Sequence record: NC_007023.1
Strand: one strand, 5' to 3'
DNA from: Escherichia phage RB43
DNA: 64,000 nucleotides
The notes beneath the pieces are model-generated. The model did not search any database. It was not told where the DNA came from and was given only the letters and a program-made list of their open reading frames with translations. Every line of letters starts with the position of its first letter. The first letter of the stretch is position 1. The position numbers and the translations under genes were made by a program. Positions 2,326-59,409 of the stretch are shown piece after piece.

Positions 2326-2708
2326 TTTGCAATAATGCCGAAAGCAAGCAAACCACCGCGATGATCGTTATCCGCACTCTCCTGGAAGAAAAAGTATTCA
2401 TCACCGGAAATACTGGTAACACGAACACCTTCTTTCAGATACGGTAACAGATACAGAGGGATCAGCATGATTTCTAAATCATCGCTCCATTTACGGAACC
2501 CCAGATTTTTCATTTCTTCCATCGTCAGGTCATTAGGATCGACGGGTTCAAAATCAGGTGATGCCTGGAGTCGTCCAGGAAGTGAACGTATATGGTTGAG
2601 AGCAAATTCTTCTCCCCATGACTGATACGCGATAGGTTCAGCGGCACGGGTTGCAGTAGCCAACAGAATCATTTGGCAGATTTGGAAAGTCGTTGCTTTT
2701 GTTTTCAT
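2322..2708 (-). CDS. hypothetical protein with hydrophobic N-terminus (128 aa)
   Basis: N-terminus MKTKATTFQICQMILLATATRAA resembles a signal peptide. Confidence 0.45.
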   Translation of the reverse strand: MKTKATTFQICQMILLATATRAAEPIAYQSWGEEFALNHIRSLPGRLQASPDFEPVDPNDLTMEEMKNLGFRKWSDDLEIMLIPLYLLPYLKEGVRVTSISGDEYFFFQESADNDHRGGLLAFGIIAK

Positions 2709-3118
2709 GATGTATATCCCACAAGTTTAGTAAGGAGGTGTCCCATAGTCTTACGCGCATGATCGCGGATTTCGCTATAAGGAACATATTTGAAACCGTC
2801 CATTTCTGTAATGGTTCGACCGTTCTTCACGAACGTTGACGCACAGAAACATTTATCGGCTTCGGGGTAATTATCGCCTTTGTAGATGAACAATGCAAGT
2901 TTTTTCTTACTTGTATAATCCAAAACACCCAGGCTGATCAGTTGGTCAGGACGCACTTCGAAACCAGTTTCTTCGAAGCATTCGCGAATAGCAGCATCAT
3001 ATGGGCTTTCACCCTTTTCTACATGCCCCTTTGGAATATCCCAGTGGGGCGTTTCGGTAGCGTGACCCATTAGAATACTGCCGTTATTCAGAAAGAGAAT
3101 ACCAGCAGATAATTCCAT
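2705..3118 (-). CDS. nudE: NUDIX hydrolase
   Basis: Nudix box GHVEKGESPYDAAIRECFEETG (Gx5Ex7REUxEExGU). Confidence 0.8.
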   Translation of the reverse strand: MELSAGILFLNNGSILMGHATETPHWDIPKGHVEKGESPYDAAIRECFEETGFEVRPDQLISLGVLDYTSKKKLALFIYKGDNYPEADKCFCASTFVKNGRTITEMDGFKYVPYSEIRDHARKTMGHLLTKLVGYTS

Positions 3119-7661: not shown

Positions 7662-7829
7662 GAGCGAAGCGAACACACGAACGAAGTGAGTGTTTGGTAA
7701 CTCAACTACAGAACTACATAATTATATTTTAATATTTTATATATAGAGAAAAATGTAGTTTTTGGTATACTTTTTGTACAGATGTTAACTATCCGTCTTC
7801 GCTTCGCTTGACGGAACTCGCTTCGCTCG
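7662..7829. repeat. dyad-symmetric intergenic element, copy A
   Basis: Arms GAGCGAAGCGAA...CGAACGAAGTGAGTG / CTCGCTTCGCTCG around a 57-bp core (7712-7768) identical to 42423-42479; core is itself palindromic (AACTACAT...ATGTAGTT). Confidence 0.75.
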
Positions 7830-7903
7830 TAACCTTGAAAAAGTTATTGATCAATTCAATAAATAGGTATATCATACCCATACTTTCAAAAGAGATTGAA
7901 AAC

Positions 7904-42384: not shown

Positions 42385-42543
42385 GAGCGAAGCGAATTTT
42401 CACGAACGAAGTGAGTGATAGGAACTACATAATTATATTTTAATATTTTATATATAGAGAAAAATGTAGTTTTTGGTATGGTTTTTAACCAGATGTAAAC
42501 TAACATTCACTCACTACGTTCGTTCATGTACTCGCTTCGCTCG
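42385..42543. repeat. dyad-symmetric intergenic element, copy B
   Basis: Same arms and identical 57-bp core (42423-42479) as copy A; arms form an imperfect ~34-bp inverted repeat. Confidence 0.75.
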
Positions 42544-42548
42544 TAAAT

Positions 42549-45375: not shown

Positions 45376-46296
45376 ATGAAAATTGATTACGAATTGGTAG
45401 AAGGGTTCCGTGCTCTGCCTACTAAAGAACAGAAAGGCGCACTGGCTGACTACGCTCAAAGCACCTTTGAAGTAAAATTGAACAAACAAAAATCATTCGA
45501 TAACATGCTGGCTGATCTGGAAGCTGCTGTACCAGCGGAAGAAGAAAAACCGGAACTGCTGATTGATTCCCCAGAATCCGCGATCGTTTCGTACACTGGT
45601 AGCGTTGCAATGGATGAACCTGTTGTTAACGCTCCGAACATTCCTGATGTTGTTGTCGATGTGTCGCAGGACTTTATGGATTACGTCAAAGACGTTGCGC
45701 CGGAAGTGGCTGATCAGATTAAATTAGTCCCTGATGTTGTTGTCGATGTGTCGCAGGACTTTATGGATTACGTCAAAGACGTTGCGCCGGAAGTGGCTGA
45801 TCAGATTAAATTAGTCCCTGATGTTGTTGTCGATGTGTCGCAGGACTTTATGGATTACGTCAAAGACGTTGCGCCGGAAGTGGCTGATCAGATTAAATTA
45901 GTCCCTGATGTTGTTGTCGATGTGTCGCAGGACTTTATGGATTACGTCAAAGACGTTGCGCCGGAAGTGGCTGATCAGATTAAATTAGTCCCTGATGTTG
46001 TAGAAGCGTCTGTAACCGCTTCTGACGAGTCCAAAGCTGATATGGCATGGTTGGACGGGTTTAGCCCTACAATCGTTCTGATGGGGCGTAGCGCTCGTTC
46101 TAACGGCTATTATACGTGTCCCTGGTGGATCTACGATTGGATTAAGAAAAATCCAGATTGGTACAAAGATCCTGACCAGTGTCCACACTACAGCGCACGG
46201 GATACCCTGAAATCGCTGGTGTACTACATCAAACGTGATGGTCAAGTTACTGTGCGTGAAACGCGCAACAGCAGTTTCGATACCTTCAAATTTTAG
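45376..46296 (+). CDS. hypothetical protein with 4 identical 29-aa repeats and C-terminal PWWIYD domain
   Basis: 306-aa ORF; repeat PDVVVDVSQDFMDYVKDVAPEVADQIKLV x4; C-terminal YYTCPWWIYDWIKKNPDWY. Confidence 0.6.
   Translation: MKIDYELVEGFRALPTKEQKGALADYAQSTFEVKLNKQKSFDNMLADLEAAVPAEEEKPELLIDSPESAIVSYTGSVAMDEPVVNAPNIPDVVVDVSQDFMDYVKDVAPEVADQIKLVPDVVVDVSQDFMDYVKDVAPEVADQIKLVPDVVVDVSQDFMDYVKDVAPEVADQIKLVPDVVVDVSQDFMDYVKDVAPEVADQIKLVPDVVEASVTASDESKADMAWLDGFSPTIVLMGRSARSNGYYTCPWWIYDWIKKNPDWYKDPDQCPHYSARDTLKSLVYYIKRDGQVTVRETRNSSFDTFKF
45643..45990 (+). repeat. perfect tandem repeat, 4 x 87 bp (plus 11-bp partial fifth unit)
   Basis: Units at 45643, 45730, 45817, 45904 identical by eye; in-frame inside CDS. 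Confidence 0.9.
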
Positions 46297-52640: not shown

Positions 52641-53684
52641 ATGTTTGTGAAATATTCTTCTCTTACGAACCATTATGAAGGTAAATTCATCAATGGTGTG
52701 ATCATGAATGGTTTGACGGGCGGTGTGTGGGTTGCTCGTGAAAAGATCCACGGTGCTAACTTTAGTCTGATTACTTCTGACGGCGAAAGGGTTATTCCGG
52801 CAAAGCGTAGCGGTGAAATCCTTCCTACTGAACAGTTTTACGGTTGCGAACCTGTTGTTGCCCGATATGCCCCAGCAATCCGCAAACTGTGGGATGTCAT
52901 CAATACCGCACAACAGGTTAGCGGGATTTACGTTGATTCTCTGGTAATTCAGGTGTATGGTGAATTTGCGGGGCGCGGTGTTCAGAAAGATGTTGATTAC
53001 GGTGAAAAAGATTTCTACGTGTTCGATATCCGCGTAAATGGTAAATTCCTGCATGATAACATCGTTGCGGTGTATGCAAAAACTGTTGGCTTGAAAATGG
53101 CCCCGCTGTTAGCATACGGTACTTTTGACGAGATCCGAGCACTTCCGATCACGTTTGATTCAGTGGTTAACCTGGCGAACTCCGGCGCGATTCCTGCACA
53201 TAACGGGGTTGAACCTGAATTCAAAAACTTCATGACGCTGAAAGATGGTGAAGGTGAGAACATCGCAGAAGGTTTTGTTATGAAGCCCGTACACCCTGCT
53301 TTCATGCCGAACGGTGAACGTGTTGCAATTAAATGCAAAACGACGAAGTTTAGCGAGAAGAAAAACAAACAAGCGAACCGCTTCAATGCTCCGGCTGAAC
53401 TGTCGGAAAATGATAAAGTTAAACTGGATGTGTTCACCTGCTACCTGACAGAAAACCGCGTTAAAAACGTCCTGTCTAAAATTGACAGCACGAACCTTAC
53501 CGCGAAAGACTTCGGTCGCGTCATGGGGCTGACTGTACAGGATGCTCTTGAAGAAATCGAACGCAACTACGGACCGTTTATCGAACAGTTTGAAAACCCG
53601 ACGCTGGCGAAGAAAACTTTCACCAACGAAGCCTCAAGCCTGATTCGTACAAACTGGGGCGCAATCCTGAACAATGAATTTTAA
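52641..53684 (+). CDS. rnlB: RNA ligase 2
   Basis: VAREKIHGANFSL (ligase KxHG motif), VAIKCKTTKFSEKK, GRVMGLTVQDALEE match T4 Rnl2. Confidence 0.85.
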   Translation: MFVKYSSLTNHYEGKFINGVIMNGLTGGVWVAREKIHGANFSLITSDGERVIPAKRSGEILPTEQFYGCEPVVARYAPAIRKLWDVINTAQQVSGIYVDSLVIQVYGEFAGRGVQKDVDYGEKDFYVFDIRVNGKFLHDNIVAVYAKTVGLKMAPLLAYGTFDEIRALPITFDSVVNLANSGAIPAHNGVEPEFKNFMTLKDGEGENIAEGFVMKPVHPAFMPNGERVAIKCKTTKFSEKKNKQANRFNAPAELSENDKVKLDVFTCYLTENRVKNVLSKIDSTNLTAKDFGRVMGLTVQDALEEIERNYGPFIEQFENPTLAKKTFTNEASSLIRTNWGAILNNEF

Positions 53685-54257
53685 AACTGTTCTCGAAAAC
53701 GCAAAAACGGCTACCCTGATCGGTAGCCGTGAACCCCCCGAACGTATAGCAAACATCGCTATCAAGATCGGACGGCATTAAGTGATCGAGACATTTTAGC
53801 TTATTCTGGTGGTGCTCCTGGAATGGATAGCCATTTCTTGTTTGACTACGCACCAGAAAGACGGCGCATAATTCTCCCTGAAAACGGTTTTAACGGGCTT
53901 TACTCGAATGGTATGGATATCATCGACTATAACGAGTTAGACACGTACAAAGCCGCTGACGAAGCGAGAAAGGTAGCTGGGAACTTCGATTACCAAAATG
54001 AATGGACACAAAGGCGTTATGCGAGAAATGCAGTTCAGATATTGCGCGAAAATTTAGACAGCCCGACTGACTTCGTGTTATTTTGGGCTATCGAAAAGGA
54101 TTTTTGTGTCAAGGGCGGTACGGCTATCGCAACACGCCTTGCACGATTATACGGTGTTCCCAGTTTCAACCTGTGGAAAGAAAACGTATTGAATGATGTT
54201 TGTGATACTTTGGGGATTAATATCAAACCTCCAACTTTGGATTTTCTCTGGTGCTAA
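53674..54257 (+). pseudogene. DprA/SLOG-like (Rossmann) protein candidate; needs 1-nt frame change near C6 run 53734-53739
   Basis: ATG 53674 gives MNFKTVLENAKTATLIGSREPP... then TAA; adjacent frame continues ...DILAYSGGAPGMDSHFL... to 54257. Confidence 0.4.
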
Positions 54258-55109: not shown

Positions 55110-55520
55110 ATGAAAGATTATATTTCAGAAGCAGAAGCGCTTGAAGAAAGCGGTTTTCAAGTCACCATTGACGATGAAGAAGATGGTGGCTATGATGGCG
55201 GTGTTATGTGGGGGCTTAAACGTCCACAACGTAAAACCCCTGTTCAATATTCTGATGGTTCAGTAAGATACGAAACGGTTGTTAAAGAAGTAAACGGGCG
55301 CGTCATTACGTCCGAACGGCAGAAGGACATTAAACAATTGTATGATGTCGCAAAAGCCGCTAAAGTAGGAACCGAGATTGTTTGTCCGGTGTGCAAAGAG
55401 AAACACAAGAAGACGACCTATCATAAGGTGTTCTGCTCTAATGGCAAAAAATCCAGGAAAGACTGCAAGAGTAAATACTGGAACACGATTCATCCTGAAC
55501 GTTTGGATCGTATCTTTTAA
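55110..55520 (+). CDS. hypothetical protein with C-terminal Cys/His cluster (about 136 aa)
   Basis: ATG 55110 with AAGGA SD; CPVCKEKHKK...HKVFCSNGKKSRKDC. Confidence 0.45.
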   Translation: MKDYISEAEALEESGFQVTIDDEEDGGYDGGVMWGLKRPQRKTPVQYSDGSVRYETVVKEVNGRVITSERQKDIKQLYDVAKAAKVGTEIVCPVCKEKHKKTTYHKVFCSNGKKSRKDCKSKYWNTIHPERLDRIF

Positions 55521-55542
55521 TCAAAACGTGGAGTACGTTTAA

Positions 55543-56973
55543 ATGCAAACTTTTAATGAACTGAATAGCATCATCACCTCAACCGATTCCTACAAAGTGT
55601 CTCACTGGATGCAGTATCCGCAAGGCACTGATGCAGCGATGTTCTATATCGAATCTCGCGGTGGTAAATTTGATGAAGTAGTAACCGCTGGCGTTAACTA
55701 CGTTGCGCGGGTTCTCGCTGAACCAATTACCATGAAGCAGGTTGAGTTAGCGCGGGTACTTTACCGTAAACACTTCGGAAAAGAGATCTTTAACTACGAA
55801 GGGTGGAAAAAGATTGCTGAACTGGGTTACACCCCTGTAATTTTCCGTGCGATCCCAGAAGGTACGGTGTTCCGGGAAAAATGCCGTGCGACTGTGTACG
55901 CCGAAAACGAATTCTCGTGGCTGGCTGGGTGGCTGGAGACAATGACGATTCGCGGTATTTGGTATCCGTCATCTGTAGCAACGCTATCGCGTGAGTGTAA
56001 AAAGGTTCTGGCACACTACCTGGATATGACTTCTGACCTTACTGGCGAAGCATATAACATCACACTGGGTACACGTCTGCATGATTTTGGGGCGCGGGGC
56101 GCGACCTCTGCTGAATCTGCTGGCATTGGTGGGCTGGCACACCTTTATAACTTCATCGGCACTGATACCGTAGAAGGGATGATTATGGCAATCAGCCTCT
56201 TTGCGGATTATCAAACACTGTTTGATGAAGTTGAAAACGTAGAAGTAGCTGGGGTTTCCATCCCTGCTCGTGAGCATTCAACTACGATTTCCTACGGTAA
56301 AGAAAACGAAGACGAAGCATATAAAAACAGCATTGAAATGTTCGGTGATGGGTTCTACGCTTGCGTATACGATTCATGGGACTACAAAGCCGCTGTTGAC
56401 CGGATCGATAGTTATAAAGAGAAAATCATTGCATCTGGCGGTGTGTTGGTAGTGCGTCCAGACTCAGGGGATATGATAGACAACATCATGTACACCTTGC
56501 GCAAACTGGGGCAAATCTTCGGATATACTGTCAACTCCAAAGGGTACAAAGTTCTTCATAACTCTGTTCGTATCATCCAGGGTGACGAGATCCACGGGCC
56601 TGAAACAATCAACCGTGTATTAAGCTGGATGGAAGCGAACAAATGGTCGAGCGAAAACATTGCGTTCGGTATGGGTGGCGGTTTGCTGCAAGAAGTTACC
56701 CGCGATACCCAGAAATATGCTGAAAAACTTTGCGCTATCCGTATCAACGGTGTGTGGAAAGGCGTTTACAAATGCCCGAAAGGTTCGGAATGGAAAAAGA
56801 GCAAGAAAGGTTTATTGATGACCATCACTAACGGGATGGAATTCAAGACAATCGATTCTCTCGAAGAATCTATTCCTGCTGGGTGGTTTGATGCGATGGT
56901 AACTTATTATGACAATGGTTATCTGAACAAAACTGACACTTTAGGGGAAATTCGTGAGCGTAGCCGGATTTAA
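55543..56973 (+). CDS. nadV: nicotinamide phosphoribosyltransferase (NAMPT)
   Basis: TDSYKVSHW, GTRLHDFGARGATS, VVRPDSGD, IQGDEI, FGMGGGLLQ are NAMPT signatures. Confidence 0.85.
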   Translation: MQTFNELNSIITSTDSYKVSHWMQYPQGTDAAMFYIESRGGKFDEVVTAGVNYVARVLAEPITMKQVELARVLYRKHFGKEIFNYEGWKKIAELGYTPVIFRAIPEGTVFREKCRATVYAENEFSWLAGWLETMTIRGIWYPSSVATLSRECKKVLAHYLDMTSDLTGEAYNITLGTRLHDFGARGATSAESAGIGGLAHLYNFIGTDTVEGMIMAISLFADYQTLFDEVENVEVAGVSIPAREHSTTISYGKENEDEAYKNSIEMFGDGFYACVYDSWDYKAAVDRIDSYKEKIIASGGVLVVRPDSGDMIDNIMYTLRKLGQIFGYTVNSKGYKVLHNSVRIIQGDEIHGPETINRVLSWMEANKWSSENIAFGMGGGLLQEVTRDTQKYAEKLCAIRINGVWKGVYKCPKGSEWKKSKKGLLMTITNGMEFKTIDSLEESIPAGWFDAMVTYYDNGYLNKTDTLGEIRERSRI

Positions 56974-57262
56974 TATCCGCGCCAACGATAACGGATCTGT
57001 AATCTTCTATAACAATCAGCCCCTTGTTGCTCGCAAGGGGCTTTTTTGTAAGTTAGTTGGGTATGGGTTCAAGTTGGAACAGGTGGATAATGCAACACTA
57101 AAAGAGATCGTGCGCATAGCCTATCTCCTGAAAGATAAGAAAGATGAACATAAGGCGGTTGCAATGCTGGAGAAATTGGGAGAAAATCATTGCTTCATCA
57201 TAAATCGTGGATACAAATACGATACAATCGCTTTATTTGAAAAAGGGCTTAGTGAACTATGA
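56954..57262 (+). CDS. hypothetical protein (102 aa)
   Basis: ORF between nadV and dam; start codon uncertain (GTG). Confidence 0.35.
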   Translation: MSVAGFNIRANDNGSVIFYNNQPLVARKGLFCKLVGYGFKLEQVDNATLKEIVRIAYLLKDKKDEHKAVAMLEKLGENHCFIINRGYKYDTIALFEKGLSEL

Positions 57263-58408: not shown

Positions 58409-58906
58409 TTGAATGGTGTTATTATGCTGACGAAACGAATTACCAAAAAAGATTACCCCTCAATCAAGCAAGCTCTCTTTGACAAACAAGGGGGCTGCTG
58501 TGCTTTATGCAAGCGTCCTTTAGAGGGAGACATTGAAAAACATCACCTCGATCATGACCATGCTTTAGACGGCGAAAACGCCGGACGTGTGCGCGGCCTA
58601 CTGTGTAACCTATGCAACGGTACAGAAGGTATTGTAAAGCACAAATTTAACCGATCCGGTCTTGTGTCTCGTGATGTTGATTATATTGTCTGGTTGGAAA
58701 ACCTGCTTGCATATCTGAAACAAGATTATTCCGAAAACCGTATTCATGACAAATTCATACCAGATAAGGTAAAATGGTTTTCAAGACTTACCAAACCTGA
58801 TATGATTGCCGAAATGGTTTCTATGGGCTTCGAGTACGCCGAAAAAGACGAACGCAAAGCCTTAACCGCAAAATATAGAAAGCAATTAATGAAGGCAACG
58901 AAATGA
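58409..58906 (+). CDS. 49: endonuclease VII (Holliday junction resolvase)
   Basis: CALCKRPLEGDIEKHHLDHDHALDGENAGRVRGLLCNLCNGTEGIVKHKFNRSG near-identical to T4 gp49 motifs. Confidence 0.85.
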   Translation: MNGVIMLTKRITKKDYPSIKQALFDKQGGCCALCKRPLEGDIEKHHLDHDHALDGENAGRVRGLLCNLCNGTEGIVKHKFNRSGLVSRDVDYIVWLENLLAYLKQDYSENRIHDKFIPDKVKWFSRLTKPDMIAEMVSMGFEYAEKDERKALTAKYRKQLMKATK

Positions 58907-59409
58907 ATGAAAAATATACGGAACTTGATGAACTTCTCAAGTGCGTAAGTGTAGACATTTGTAGCGGTGTTGTTACGTGGACTAAGCCAACAAACCGAAA
59001 AATTTGTATAGGCCAATCTGCTGGTGTTGTTGATAAAAACGGGTATACTGTTATCGGGTTCAAAGGGAAGAAATTCTTCCGACACCACGTTATATGGTAT
59101 GCGATTCATGGTACACTACCAGAAAAACCGTATGTTATTGATCATGTTCACGGAGTTGAACGTGGCGATGGGGTTTCGAACCTACAAAAGATTACACAAC
59201 AACAAAACATCATGAAGAAAAAGGTTCAGAGAAATAATAAATCTGGACATAAAGGCGTACATTGGTGCAACACATACAACAAATGGGTTGCAAAAATAAA
59301 GTTCAATGGAAAATCAATTTATATCGGAGAGTATGACGATTTGAATGATGCTATCAACGCAAGAATTCGCAAATCTCAAGAACTCTTTGGTGAGTTTGGA
59401 GAAATATAA
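58903..59409 (+). CDS. HNH homing endonuclease with AP2-type DNA-binding domain
   Basis: HNH core IDHVHGVERGDGVSNLQKIT; AP2-like SGHKGVHWCNTYNKWVAKIKFNGKSIYIGEYDDLNDAINA; inserted between gene 49 and nrdD. Confidence 0.7.
   Translation: MNEKYTELDELLKCVSVDICSGVVTWTKPTNRKICIGQSAGVVDKNGYTVIGFKGKKFFRHHVIWYAIHGTLPEKPYVIDHVHGVERGDGVSNLQKITQQQNIMKKKVQRNNKSGHKGVHWCNTYNKWVAKIKFNGKSIYIGEYDDLNDAINARIRKSQELFGEFGEI

What the first reader, a model, noticed from the sequence alone, without database searches (positions are those of the whole stretch)
55543..56973. Phage-encoded NAMPT (NadV): NAD salvage and possible counter to NAD-depleting defences
The 476-aa ORF has the hallmark NAMPT motifs. T4 itself lacks this gene. 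Phage NAD+ reconstitution enzymes have been linked to overcoming defence systems that deplete NAD+. No NMN adenylyltransferase partner is evident in this window, though a NUDIX hydrolase (nudE) is present at 2705-3118.
Basis: partly seen in the sequence, partly recalled or inferred. Interest (0 to 1): 0.55.

Follow-up and report, generated by a model that had tools for sequence, protein, structure and literature searches.

The report
Phage NAMPT gene, known NAD+ salvage
This is a genuine nicotinamide phosphoribosyltransferase gene of coliphage RB43, one half of an already described two-enzyme phage pathway (NARP2) that rebuilds NAD+; its partner enzyme is encoded elsewhere in the same genome, so the finding is correct but ordinary.

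Summary
The 476-aa ORF at 55543-56973 (+) is real and is a full-length nicotinamide phosphoribosyltransferase (NAMPT/NadV). It has both NAMPT domains and passes the NCBIfam cut-off. It matches the solved Xanthomonas (E 5e-101) and human/mouse (E 4e-83) enzymes, and every substrate-binding and catalytic residue I checked is conserved. The window is phage RB43 (99.8% nt identity to RB43-GVA). The RB16 orthologue (97.7% aa) is annotated as NAMPT and is listed by Osterman et al. 2024 as an 'Nmnat-associated' Nampt, i.e. NARP2. It is a 352-aa bifunctional NMN adenylyltransferase/Nudix protein, 41% identical to KVP40 NatV, at RB43-GVA 78938-79996, about 16 kb before the window starts. No Adps/Prs-like gene was found, and the protein lacks the Namat 'selectivity clamp', so it is not NARP1. 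The most likely mechanism is: nicotinamide + PRPP gives NMN (NadV), then NMN + ATP gives NAD+ (NatV-like). This replenishes NAD+ during infection and probably counters NAD+-depleting defences. That role is shown for KVP40 and only inferred here. One oddity is that the window's copy has three single-T deletions that scramble seven conserved residues (aa 110-116). This is probably a sequencing error in the source record. Verdict: already known, low interest.

The parts
55543..56973 (+). nadV: nicotinamide phosphoribosyltransferase CDS (476 aa in this window; 477 aa in RB43-GVA and RB16)
   Evidence: ORF list; Pfam NAMPT_N + NAPRTase; NCBIfam NF006629 above cut-off; PDB matches to Xcc and human/mouse NAMPT; catalytic residues conserved; 49.5% identity to KVP40 NadV
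55530..55533 (+). GGAG Shine-Dalgarno, 9 nt upstream of the ATG; the upstream ORF stops at 55520
   Evidence: Sequence read directly
55868..55891 (+). Aberrant patch: three single-T deletions relative to RB43-GVA and RB16. They turn the conserved V-P-V-K-N-A-V-A into F-R-E-K-C-R-A (aa 110-116) and restore the frame.
   Evidence: DNA alignment; protein comparison; indel positions 55869, 55876, 55887; V-[VI]-P conserved in human, Xcc, KVP40, FADO and Bas63 homologues
57018..57049 (+). Terminator-like hairpin (10-bp stem, 6 G-C pairs, then a T run) 45 nt after the nadV stop, inside the overlapping 102-aa ORF 56954-57262; possible 3' end of the nadV transcript
   Evidence: Consensus scan; RNA fold -19.4 kcal/mol, z -3.55. 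Function not shown.

Best explanation
The ORF is the nadV gene of the T4-related coliphage RB43. It encodes a type II phosphoribosyltransferase that condenses nicotinamide with PRPP to give NMN. Catalysis is probably boosted by ATP-driven autophosphorylation of His245, the equivalent of human His247. A second phage gene lies outside the window (RB43-GVA 78938-79996, about 71 kb from nadV). It encodes a NatV/NadM-type bifunctional protein. Its N-terminal domain adenylylates NMN to NAD+. Its C-terminal Nudix domain can split ADP-ribose into AMP and ribose-5-phosphate, which host Prs can turn back into PRPP. Together the two genes form the known NAD+ reconstitution pathway 2 (NARP2). This pathway raises NAD+ in infected cells and lets a phage replicate in hosts whose defence systems (Thoeris I, DSR1/2, SIR2-HerA and similar) destroy NAD+. 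Shown here: family membership, conserved active site, presence of the partner, absence of the NARP1 partner. Inferred: enzyme activity, early expression, and the anti-defence benefit.
For: NAMPT domain pair and curated-cut-off hit. Best solved relatives are true Nampts: Xcc 341.8 bits and human/mouse about 283 bits, against SPbetaL1 Namat 9W5X at 185.6 bits. All mapped ligand and catalytic residues are conserved: Y17, F182, R185, D208 (nicotinamide-specifying Asp219), H245, R305, D307, G347-D348, G378-G379, R387, K395, K410, K418. Identity is 49.5% to the biochemically characterised KVP40 NadV, against 31% to FADO Namat and 25% to Bas63 Namat. The motif GMGGGLLQEVTRDT matches KVP40 (GMGGGLLQQLDRDT), not the Namat clamp (GIGSFTYQYNTRDT), and the beta1-beta2 loop is short as in Xcc and KVP40. 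For the partner, the RB16 and RB43 353/352-aa protein has CTP_transf_like + NUDIX domains and matches the NCBIfam bifunctional NMNAT/Nudix model at E 5e-77. It also matches the solved NadM-Nudix 2qjo at E 5.5e-55 over its full length and is 41% identical to KVP40 natV. The RB16 orthologue is listed as 'Nmnat-associated' by Osterman et al.. The same paper reports that 94% of KVP40-type Nampt phages carry Nmnat and that NARP2 abolishes Thoeris and DSR2 defence. In a related 176-kb Klebsiella Straboviridae phage carrying nadM + NAMPT, nadM deletion collapsed the host range. The gene's position is conserved in a Klebsiella phage whose NAMPT is 72.7% identical.
Against: No experiment exists for the RB43 or RB16 proteins. 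The window's copy carries a scrambled 7-residue segment in a strand conserved from phage to human, which could impair this particular allele if it is real. The NMNAT/Nudix partner scores below NCBIfam's curated equivalog cut-offs (259 against 397 bits). Its Nudix box ends in R-I rather than G-U (read). The two genes are not co-transcribed, being about 71 kb apart and on opposite strands. The anti-defence role is extrapolated from KVP40 genes expressed in Bacillus subtilis.
Confidence: 0.85

Rival explanations
1. The enzyme pair is a general auxiliary metabolic module. It boosts NAD+ supply for phage nucleotide and redox metabolism in any host, and counter-defence is at most a side benefit.
For: NARP2 raises NAD+ even in cells without a defence system. 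The gene sits among nucleotide-metabolism genes: rnlB, dam, nrdC, nrdD, nrdG. KVP40 salvage was first described as metabolism, before the defence link.
Against: NARP2 expression is costly or toxic because it drains PRPP, which argues for a specific selective benefit. Knock-in of NARP2 overcomes Thoeris, and co-expression abolishes Thoeris and DSR2 defence. nadM deletion narrows host range in a related phage. The biochemistry is the same in both readings, so they are not mutually exclusive.
Confidence: 0.3
2. The protein is a Namat, the NARP1 enzyme that joins nicotinamide to ADPR-pyrophosphate to give NAD+ directly, so it needs no NMNAT.
For: Namat and Nampt share both Pfam domains and the catalytic core. 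KVP40 Nampt can make some NAD+ from ADPR-PP in vitro.
Against: No Adps/Prs-like gene lies next to it or anywhere in the RB16 genome, the window, or RB43-GVA 50-96 kb (tblastn with FADO and Bas63 Adps, best E 0.97; annotation). The clamp aromatics F392 and Y396 are G380 and E384 here, and the SCL loop is short. Identity to verified Namats is only 25-31%. The orthologue is classed as Nmnat-associated.
Confidence: 0.03
3. The protein is a nicotinate phosphoribosyltransferase, as several GenBank records and the NCBIfam model name say. It would feed the Preiss-Handler route through host NadD and NadE.
For: The product name of NF006629 and many phage annotations read 'nicotinate phosphoribosyltransferase'.
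Against: It has the NAMPT-specific N-terminal domain. The Asp that specifies nicotinamide (human Asp219) is conserved as D208 (the role of Asp219 is from my knowledge of the human NAMPT structural literature). The closest characterised relatives are all nicotinamide enzymes. The PncB-type model NF006696 scores only 14.6 bits against a cut-off of 503.
Confidence: 0.03
4. In the isolate from which the window comes, nadV is a damaged allele, attenuated by a real triple single-base deletion. NARP2 would then be impaired in that stock.
For: Three T deletions within 19 nt replace the conserved V-P-V-K-N-A-V-A segment while keeping the frame. NARP2 is costly or toxic in E. coli, so attenuation in laboratory passage is conceivable. 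The variant string is absent from IMG/VR, which does contain the consensus version.
Against: Across the window, differences from RB43-GVA are dominated by single-base indels (23, against 14 substitutions). Several of these split otherwise conserved ORFs. That pattern is typical of base-calling errors in one record. RB16, sequenced independently, agrees with RB43-GVA.
Confidence: 0.1

Closest known systems
Vibrio phage KVP40 NadV + NatV (NARP2; Lee, Li & Miller 2017 J Bacteriol, from my knowledge; Osterman et al. 2024)
   Same: The Nampt has the same two domains and is 49.5% identical. The NMNAT-Nudix partner is 41% identical over 98% of its length. In both phages the two genes are far apart rather than in an operon: KVP40 nadV at 138 kb and natV at 94.5 kb. 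Both are T4-related Straboviridae.
   Different: The RB43 proteins have never been assayed. KVP40 additionally carries NadR- and PnuC-like genes, and none is annotated in RB16. The host is enterobacterial rather than Vibrio.
Escherichia phage RB16 gp239 (YP_003858539) and relatives in Pseudotevenvirus, Karamvirus and Slopekvirus-type phages
   Same: 97.7% aa identity with identical synteny. It is annotated as nicotinamide phosphoribosyl transferase and listed as 'Nmnat-associated' in Osterman Table S2.
   Different: RB16 and RB43-GVA encode 477 aa with the conserved VPVKNAVA segment. The window encodes 476 aa with FREKCRA.
Cellular Nampt: Xanthomonas campestris (PDB 7YQO) and human/mouse NAMPT (PDB 2GVG, 2GVL)
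   Same: Full-length alignment at E 5e-101 and 4e-83. About 40% identity to the mouse enzyme. All mapped active-site residues are conserved, including the phospho-histidine.
   Different: The beta1-beta2 loop is short like the bacterial enzyme and lacks the 10-residue insert of the mammalian enzyme. Human Ser275 is Ala here, as in Xcc.
NARP1 Namat (SPbetaL1, FADO, Bas63) with Adps
   Same: Same fold and same catalytic core.
   Different: Namat has the adenine 'selectivity clamp' (G-S-F/Y-T-Y-Q-Y and a longer SCL loop) and an adjacent Prs-like Adps gene. The window protein has neither.
NadM-Nudix bifunctional enzymes (Synechocystis slr0787 and Francisella FTT0672 structures, PDB 2QJO and 2QJT; organism names from my knowledge)
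   Same: The RB43 partner protein aligns end to end at E 5.5e-55 and 1.3e-44. It has the GRFQPFHxGH motif and a Nudix box.
   Different: It is phage-encoded, and its scores fall below NCBIfam's curated equivalog cut-offs.

Membership tests
Nicotinamide phosphoribosyltransferase (NAMPT/NadV, EC 2.4.2.12) | Domain architecture NAMPT_N (PF18127) followed by the type II PRTase barrel (PF04095), full length | tested here: met
   Pfam E 2e-24 and 3e-38; NCBIfam NF006629 442.7 bits against cut-off 405, profile positions 5-462 of 465; PHROG 448 E 1.5e-158
Nicotinamide phosphoribosyltransferase (NAMPT/NadV, EC 2.4.2.12) | Active-site residues of human NAMPT: Tyr18 and Phe193 stacking; Asp219 (nicotinamide specificity); His247 (phospho-His); Arg196, Arg311, Asp313, Gly353-Asp354, Gly383-Gly384, Arg392 | tested here: met
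   All are conserved: Y17, F182, D208, H245, R185, R305, D307, G347-D348, G378-G379, R387 (from the HMMER alignment to 2gvl_A). The roles of the residues are from my knowledge of the published structures and from PMC12774641.
Nicotinamide phosphoribosyltransferase (NAMPT/NadV, EC 2.4.2.12) | NMN formation from nicotinamide + PRPP | not testable with these tools
   Needs an enzyme assay. Shown for the KVP40 homologue at 49.5% identity.
Nicotinamide phosphoribosyltransferase (NAMPT/NadV, EC 2.4.2.12) | Intact conserved core sequence throughout | tested here: inconclusive
   Residues 110-116 deviate from a segment conserved in all homologues compared, because of three 1-nt deletions. This is probably a record error.
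NARP2 (phage NAD+ reconstitution pathway 2) | Nampt of the KVP40-type, 'Nmnat-associated' clade | tested here: met
   Closest characterised phage homologue is KVP40 NadV. The RB16 orthologue is labelled Nmnat-associated in Osterman Table S2.
NARP2 (phage NAD+ reconstitution pathway 2) | An Nmnat homologue encoded in the same phage genome | tested here: met
   RB43-GVA 78938-79996 and RB16 77775-78836 carry CTP_transf_like + NUDIX domains. They are 41% identical to KVP40 natV and match 2qjo at E 5.5e-55. The gene lies outside the 64-kb window.
NARP2 (phage NAD+ reconstitution pathway 2) | Restores NAD+ and rescues phage from NAD+-depleting defence | not testable with these tools
   Shown for the KVP40 genes. 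Genetic support for nadM comes from a related Klebsiella phage.
NARP1 Namat | Adjacent or co-occurring Adps (Prs-like ADPR pyrophosphokinase) | tested here: not met
   tblastn with FADO and Bas63 Adps against the whole RB16 genome, RB43-GVA 50-96 kb and the window gave nothing below E 0.97. The neighbours are small hypothetical ORFs.
NARP1 Namat | Adenine selectivity clamp: aromatic SCH residues (SPbetaL1 F392, Y396) and an extended SCL loop | tested here: not met
   The window has G380 and E384 and a short loop, as in KVP40 and Xcc (clamp defined in PMC12774641).
Nicotinate phosphoribosyltransferase (PncB type) | Match to PncB-type models and absence of the nicotinamide-specifying Asp | tested here: not met
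   NF006696 scores 14.6 bits against cut-off 503; D208 is conserved.

The most novel reading that the evidence does not exclude
The triple single-T deletion in nadV (55869, 55876, 55887) is real rather than a sequencing error. The RB43 stock behind this window would then carry an attenuated NAMPT, selected because PRPP-draining NARP2 is costly in defence-free laboratory E. coli. That would be a natural example of a phage shedding a counter-defence pathway under relaxed selection.
Probability: 0.08. Interest if true: 0.3.

Novelty: already known. Interest (0 to 1): 0.12.

Why it matters
Phage-encoded NAD+ rebuilding is a broad-spectrum way around abortive-infection systems that destroy NAD+. 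Knowing which phages carry a complete pathway therefore matters for host-range prediction and for choosing therapeutic phages. For this locus, the gene, its family, its partner and the pathway are all already in the databases and the literature. RB43 adds only one more member whose activity has not been tested.

Tried and rejected
1. I looked for an NMNAT in the window with tblastn, using the RB16, RB43 and KVP40 NatV proteins. Only the Nudix box of nudE gave a weak hit (E 0.03). The partner is outside the window.

2. I tested the Namat/NARP1 reading and rejected it: there is no Adps and no selectivity clamp.

3. I followed a literature hit linking 'RB43' with nicotinamide and SLOG/YpsA proteins (PMC6459960). 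There 'RB43' is a Bacillus strain name, so it was a false lead.

4. I searched IMG/VR for the window's aberrant 33-nt patch and found 0 hits. The consensus version gave 1 hit, a 176,788-bp contig of RB16's length. This is weakly informative only.

5. I tried to read Lee et al. 2017 (J Bacteriol, KVP40 NadV/NatV). It is not held, so its content is cited from Osterman's account and from my own knowledge.

6. I scanned the flanking small ORFs with Pfam and PHROGs. They match only families of unknown function, apart from a DprA-like protein.

7. The sigma-70 promoter scan around nadV gave 17 sites against 13.3 expected, so it is uninformative.

8. I did not run structure prediction, the large homology searches, or a direct search of the T4 genome. 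The answer did not depend on them.

Full report
**Observation.**
A GGAG ribosome-binding site lies 9 nt upstream of the ATG. The window has uniform composition of about 43-45% G+C.

The product carries the NAMPT-specific N-terminal domain (PF18127, E 2e-24) and the type II phosphoribosyltransferase barrel (PF04095, E 3e-38). It exceeds the curated cut-off of NCBIfam NF006629 (442.7 against 405 bits) over the whole profile. It also matches PHROG 448 'nicotinamide phosphoribosyl transferase' at E 1.5e-158. This is far beyond chance.

**Source of the window.**
The nadV gene is 99.8% identical in nucleotides to both RB43-GVA records and 98.5% to RB16. About 55 further Enterobacter, Cronobacter, Citrobacter and Klebsiella T4-related phages match at 80-90%. 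The whole window aligns to RB43-GVA 95598-159337.

In RB16 the orthologue (RB16p239) is annotated 'nicotinamide phosphoribosyl transferase'. It lies in the order srd, rnlB, DprA-like, three small ORFs, nadV, small ORF, dam, nrdC, homing endonuclease, nrdD, nrdG. The RB43-GVA record carries no functional names at all. The same gene order is kept in a Klebsiella phage whose NAMPT is 72.7% identical.

**Is it a working NAMPT?**
The best solved relatives are true nicotinamide enzymes:
- Xanthomonas campestris Nampt (7YQO): E 5.5e-101.
- Human and mouse NAMPT: E about 4e-83, about 40% identity.
- SPbetaL1 Namat (9W5X/9W5W): E 1.3e-53.

I mapped the mouse enzyme's native numbering onto the window protein. 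Every residue I checked is conserved:
- Tyr18/Phe193 map to Y17/F182.
- Arg196 maps to R185.
- Asp219 maps to D208.
- His247 maps to H245.
- Arg311/Asp313 map to R305/D307.
- Gly353-Asp354 map to G347-D348.
- Gly383-Gly384 map to G378-G379.
- Arg392 maps to R387.
- Lys400/415/423 map to K395/K410/K418.

Human Ser275 is Ala here, as it is in the Xanthomonas enzyme. The roles of these residues come from my knowledge of the human NAMPT structures and from PMC12774641.

**Nampt or Namat?**
Osterman et al. showed that phage NAMPT-like proteins fall into two clades:
- Namat uses ADPR-pyrophosphate and is always paired with a Prs-like Adps. This is NARP1.
- True Nampt co-occurs with an Nmnat in 94% of phages that carry it. 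This is NARP2.

PMC12774641 defines what sets Namat apart: a 'selectivity clamp' with aromatic residues F392 and Y396 and an extended beta1-beta2 loop.

In an alignment with KVP40 NadV, FADO Namat and Bas63 Namat, the window protein reads GMGGGLLQEVTRDT. KVP40 reads GMGGGLLQQLDRDT, while the Namats read GIGSFTYQYNTRDT and GVGSYTYQYMTRDT. The window protein also has the short loop of KVP40 and Xanthomonas.

Identity is 49.5% to KVP40 NadV, 31% to FADO Namat and 25% to Bas63 Namat. FADO and Bas63 have a 'ribose-phosphate pyrophosphokinase' (Adps) immediately upstream. tblastn with both Adps proteins found nothing better than E 0.97 in the whole RB16 genome, RB43-GVA 50-96 kb or the window. The protein is a Nampt, not a Namat.

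**The partner.**
No NMNAT is encoded in the window. The Nudix ORF at 2705-3118 (minus strand) is the nudE homologue. It is not an adenylyltransferase.

The RB16 annotation lists a 353-aa 'cytidyltransferase' at 77775-78836, which GenBank HM134276 calls 'putative bifunctional protein: NMN adenylyltransferase/NUDIX hydrolase'. The evidence for it is as follows:
- It has CTP_transf_like and NUDIX domains.
- It matches NCBIfam bifunctional NMNAT/Nudix models end to end at E 5e-77, although below their equivalog cut-offs.
- RB43-GVA has the syntenic 352-aa gene at 78938-79996, with 319 of 353 residues identical.
- The RB43-GVA protein matches the solved NadM-Nudix structures 2QJO (E 5.5e-55) and 2QJT (E 1.3e-44).
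- The RB43-GVA protein is 41% identical to KVP40 natV over 98% of its length.
- It has a conserved GRFxPFHxGH motif and a Nudix box.

This gene lies about 16 kb before the window start and about 71 kb from nadV. KVP40 also keeps nadV (138 kb) and natV (94.5 kb) apart.

The supplementary table of Osterman et al. lists the RB16 protein (HM134276_00238) as 'Nmnat-associated'. The pathway is therefore complete and already classified as NARP2.

**Mechanism.**
- Step 1: NadV converts nicotinamide + PRPP to NMN + PPi.
- Step 2: the NatV-like N-domain converts NMN + ATP to NAD+ + PPi.
- Step 3: the Nudix domain probably hydrolyses ADP-ribose to AMP + ribose-5-phosphate, which host Prs can convert back to PRPP.

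For KVP40 these activities are reported in the literature. The two KVP40 genes abolished Thoeris and DSR2 defence and raised NAD+ with or without a defence system. They also carried a fitness cost. A 2026 study of a 176-kb Klebsiella Straboviridae phage carrying nadM + NAMPT reports that deleting nadM collapses its host range.

For RB43, family membership, the active site and the partner are shown here. Activity, expression timing and anti-defence benefit are inferred. A rival emphasis, general NAD+ supply rather than counter-defence, uses the same biochemistry and cannot be separated from it computationally.

**An oddity in this copy.**
Relative to RB43-GVA and RB16, the window lacks three single T's at 55869, 55876 and 55887. 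This replaces V-P-V-K-N-A-V-A with F-R-E-K-C-R-A (aa 110-116) and shortens the protein from 477 to 476 aa. The replaced V-[VI]-P segment is conserved in human, Xanthomonas, KVP40, FADO and Bas63 proteins.

Across the whole window, differences from RB43-GVA are 23 single-base indels against 14 substitutions. Some indels form frame-restoring clusters (3000/3007 in nudE; 6548/6575/6596; 33493/33499/33559). Others are isolated and split ORFs just upstream of nadV (53775, 54519, 55042). This pattern, together with RB16 agreeing with RB43-GVA, points to base-calling errors in the window's source record rather than biology.

A real attenuated allele is not excluded; I put that at about 0.1. The variant string is absent from IMG/VR, which does contain the consensus version.

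**Comparison and novelty.**
The locus is a member of a known family (NAMPT) within a known system (NARP2). It has a characterised homologue pair in KVP40, and its near-identical RB16 orthologue is already catalogued. Nothing in its anatomy departs from that system. Novelty is 'already known' and interest is low (0.12).

Noticed in passing
window 55868-55891: Three single-T deletions relative to RB43-GVA and RB16 scramble seven residues of NadV (FREKCRA instead of the conserved VPVKNAVA) and then restore the frame. The variant was not found in IMG/VR. It is probably a sequencing error in the source record.
   Followed up: yes
window 1-64000 against HE981739.1 95598-159337: Differences from RB43-GVA are dominated by single-base indels (23, against 14 substitutions). 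Frame-restoring clusters occur at 3000/3007 (inside nudE), 6548/6575/6596 and 33493/33499/33559. Isolated indels at 53775, 54519 and 55042 break up the ORFs between rnlB and nadV. For example, the 194-aa DprA-like ORF of RB43-GVA appears truncated as 53823-54257 in the window.
   Followed up: partly
window 45643-46001 (ORF 45376-46296, +): A perfect 87-nt (29-codon) tandem repeat is present in 4.1 copies inside the homologue of the RB16 'inh' minor head protein gene. RB43-GVA is 261 nt (three copies) shorter here, so the copy number differs between two RB43 records.
   Followed up: partly
window 57018-57049 (+): A strong terminator-like hairpin (10-bp stem, then TTTTTTG; -19.4 kcal/mol, z -3.55) lies 45 nt after the nadV stop. 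It sits inside the annotated 102-aa ORF 56954-57262 (PHROG 7497, unknown function), which overlaps the nadV 3' end by 20 nt. In Klebsiella phage Roth23 the corresponding ORF is shorter and does not overlap nadV, so the annotated GTG start may be wrong.
   Followed up: partly
window 53674-54257 region; L013 19001-19582: A DprA-like (PHROG 768; SLOG-type, Pfam DNA_processg_A only E 1e-4) gene lies 1.3 kb upstream of nadV. It keeps that position in Klebsiella phage Roth23. SLOG/YpsA-clade proteins have been linked in the literature to NAD/ADP-ribose and phosphoribosyltransferases (PMC6459960). Whether this neighbour has any NAD-related role was not tested, and no such gene is annotated next to KVP40 nadV.
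   Followed up: no
window 7711-7832 and 42422-42546: A direct repeat of about 125 nt at 84% identity occurs in two intergenic regions. By RB43-GVA coordinates these lie between divergent genes near gene 3, and between gp24 and uvsY. It may be a shared regulatory element.
   Followed up: no
window 58409-59409: RB43 has an endonuclease VII-like ORF (58409-58906) followed by a 168-aa ORF (58903-59409) directly before nrdD. RB16 instead has a single 1080-nt 'homing endonuclease' gene at this position. This looks like a mobile-element polymorphism between close relatives.
   Followed up: no
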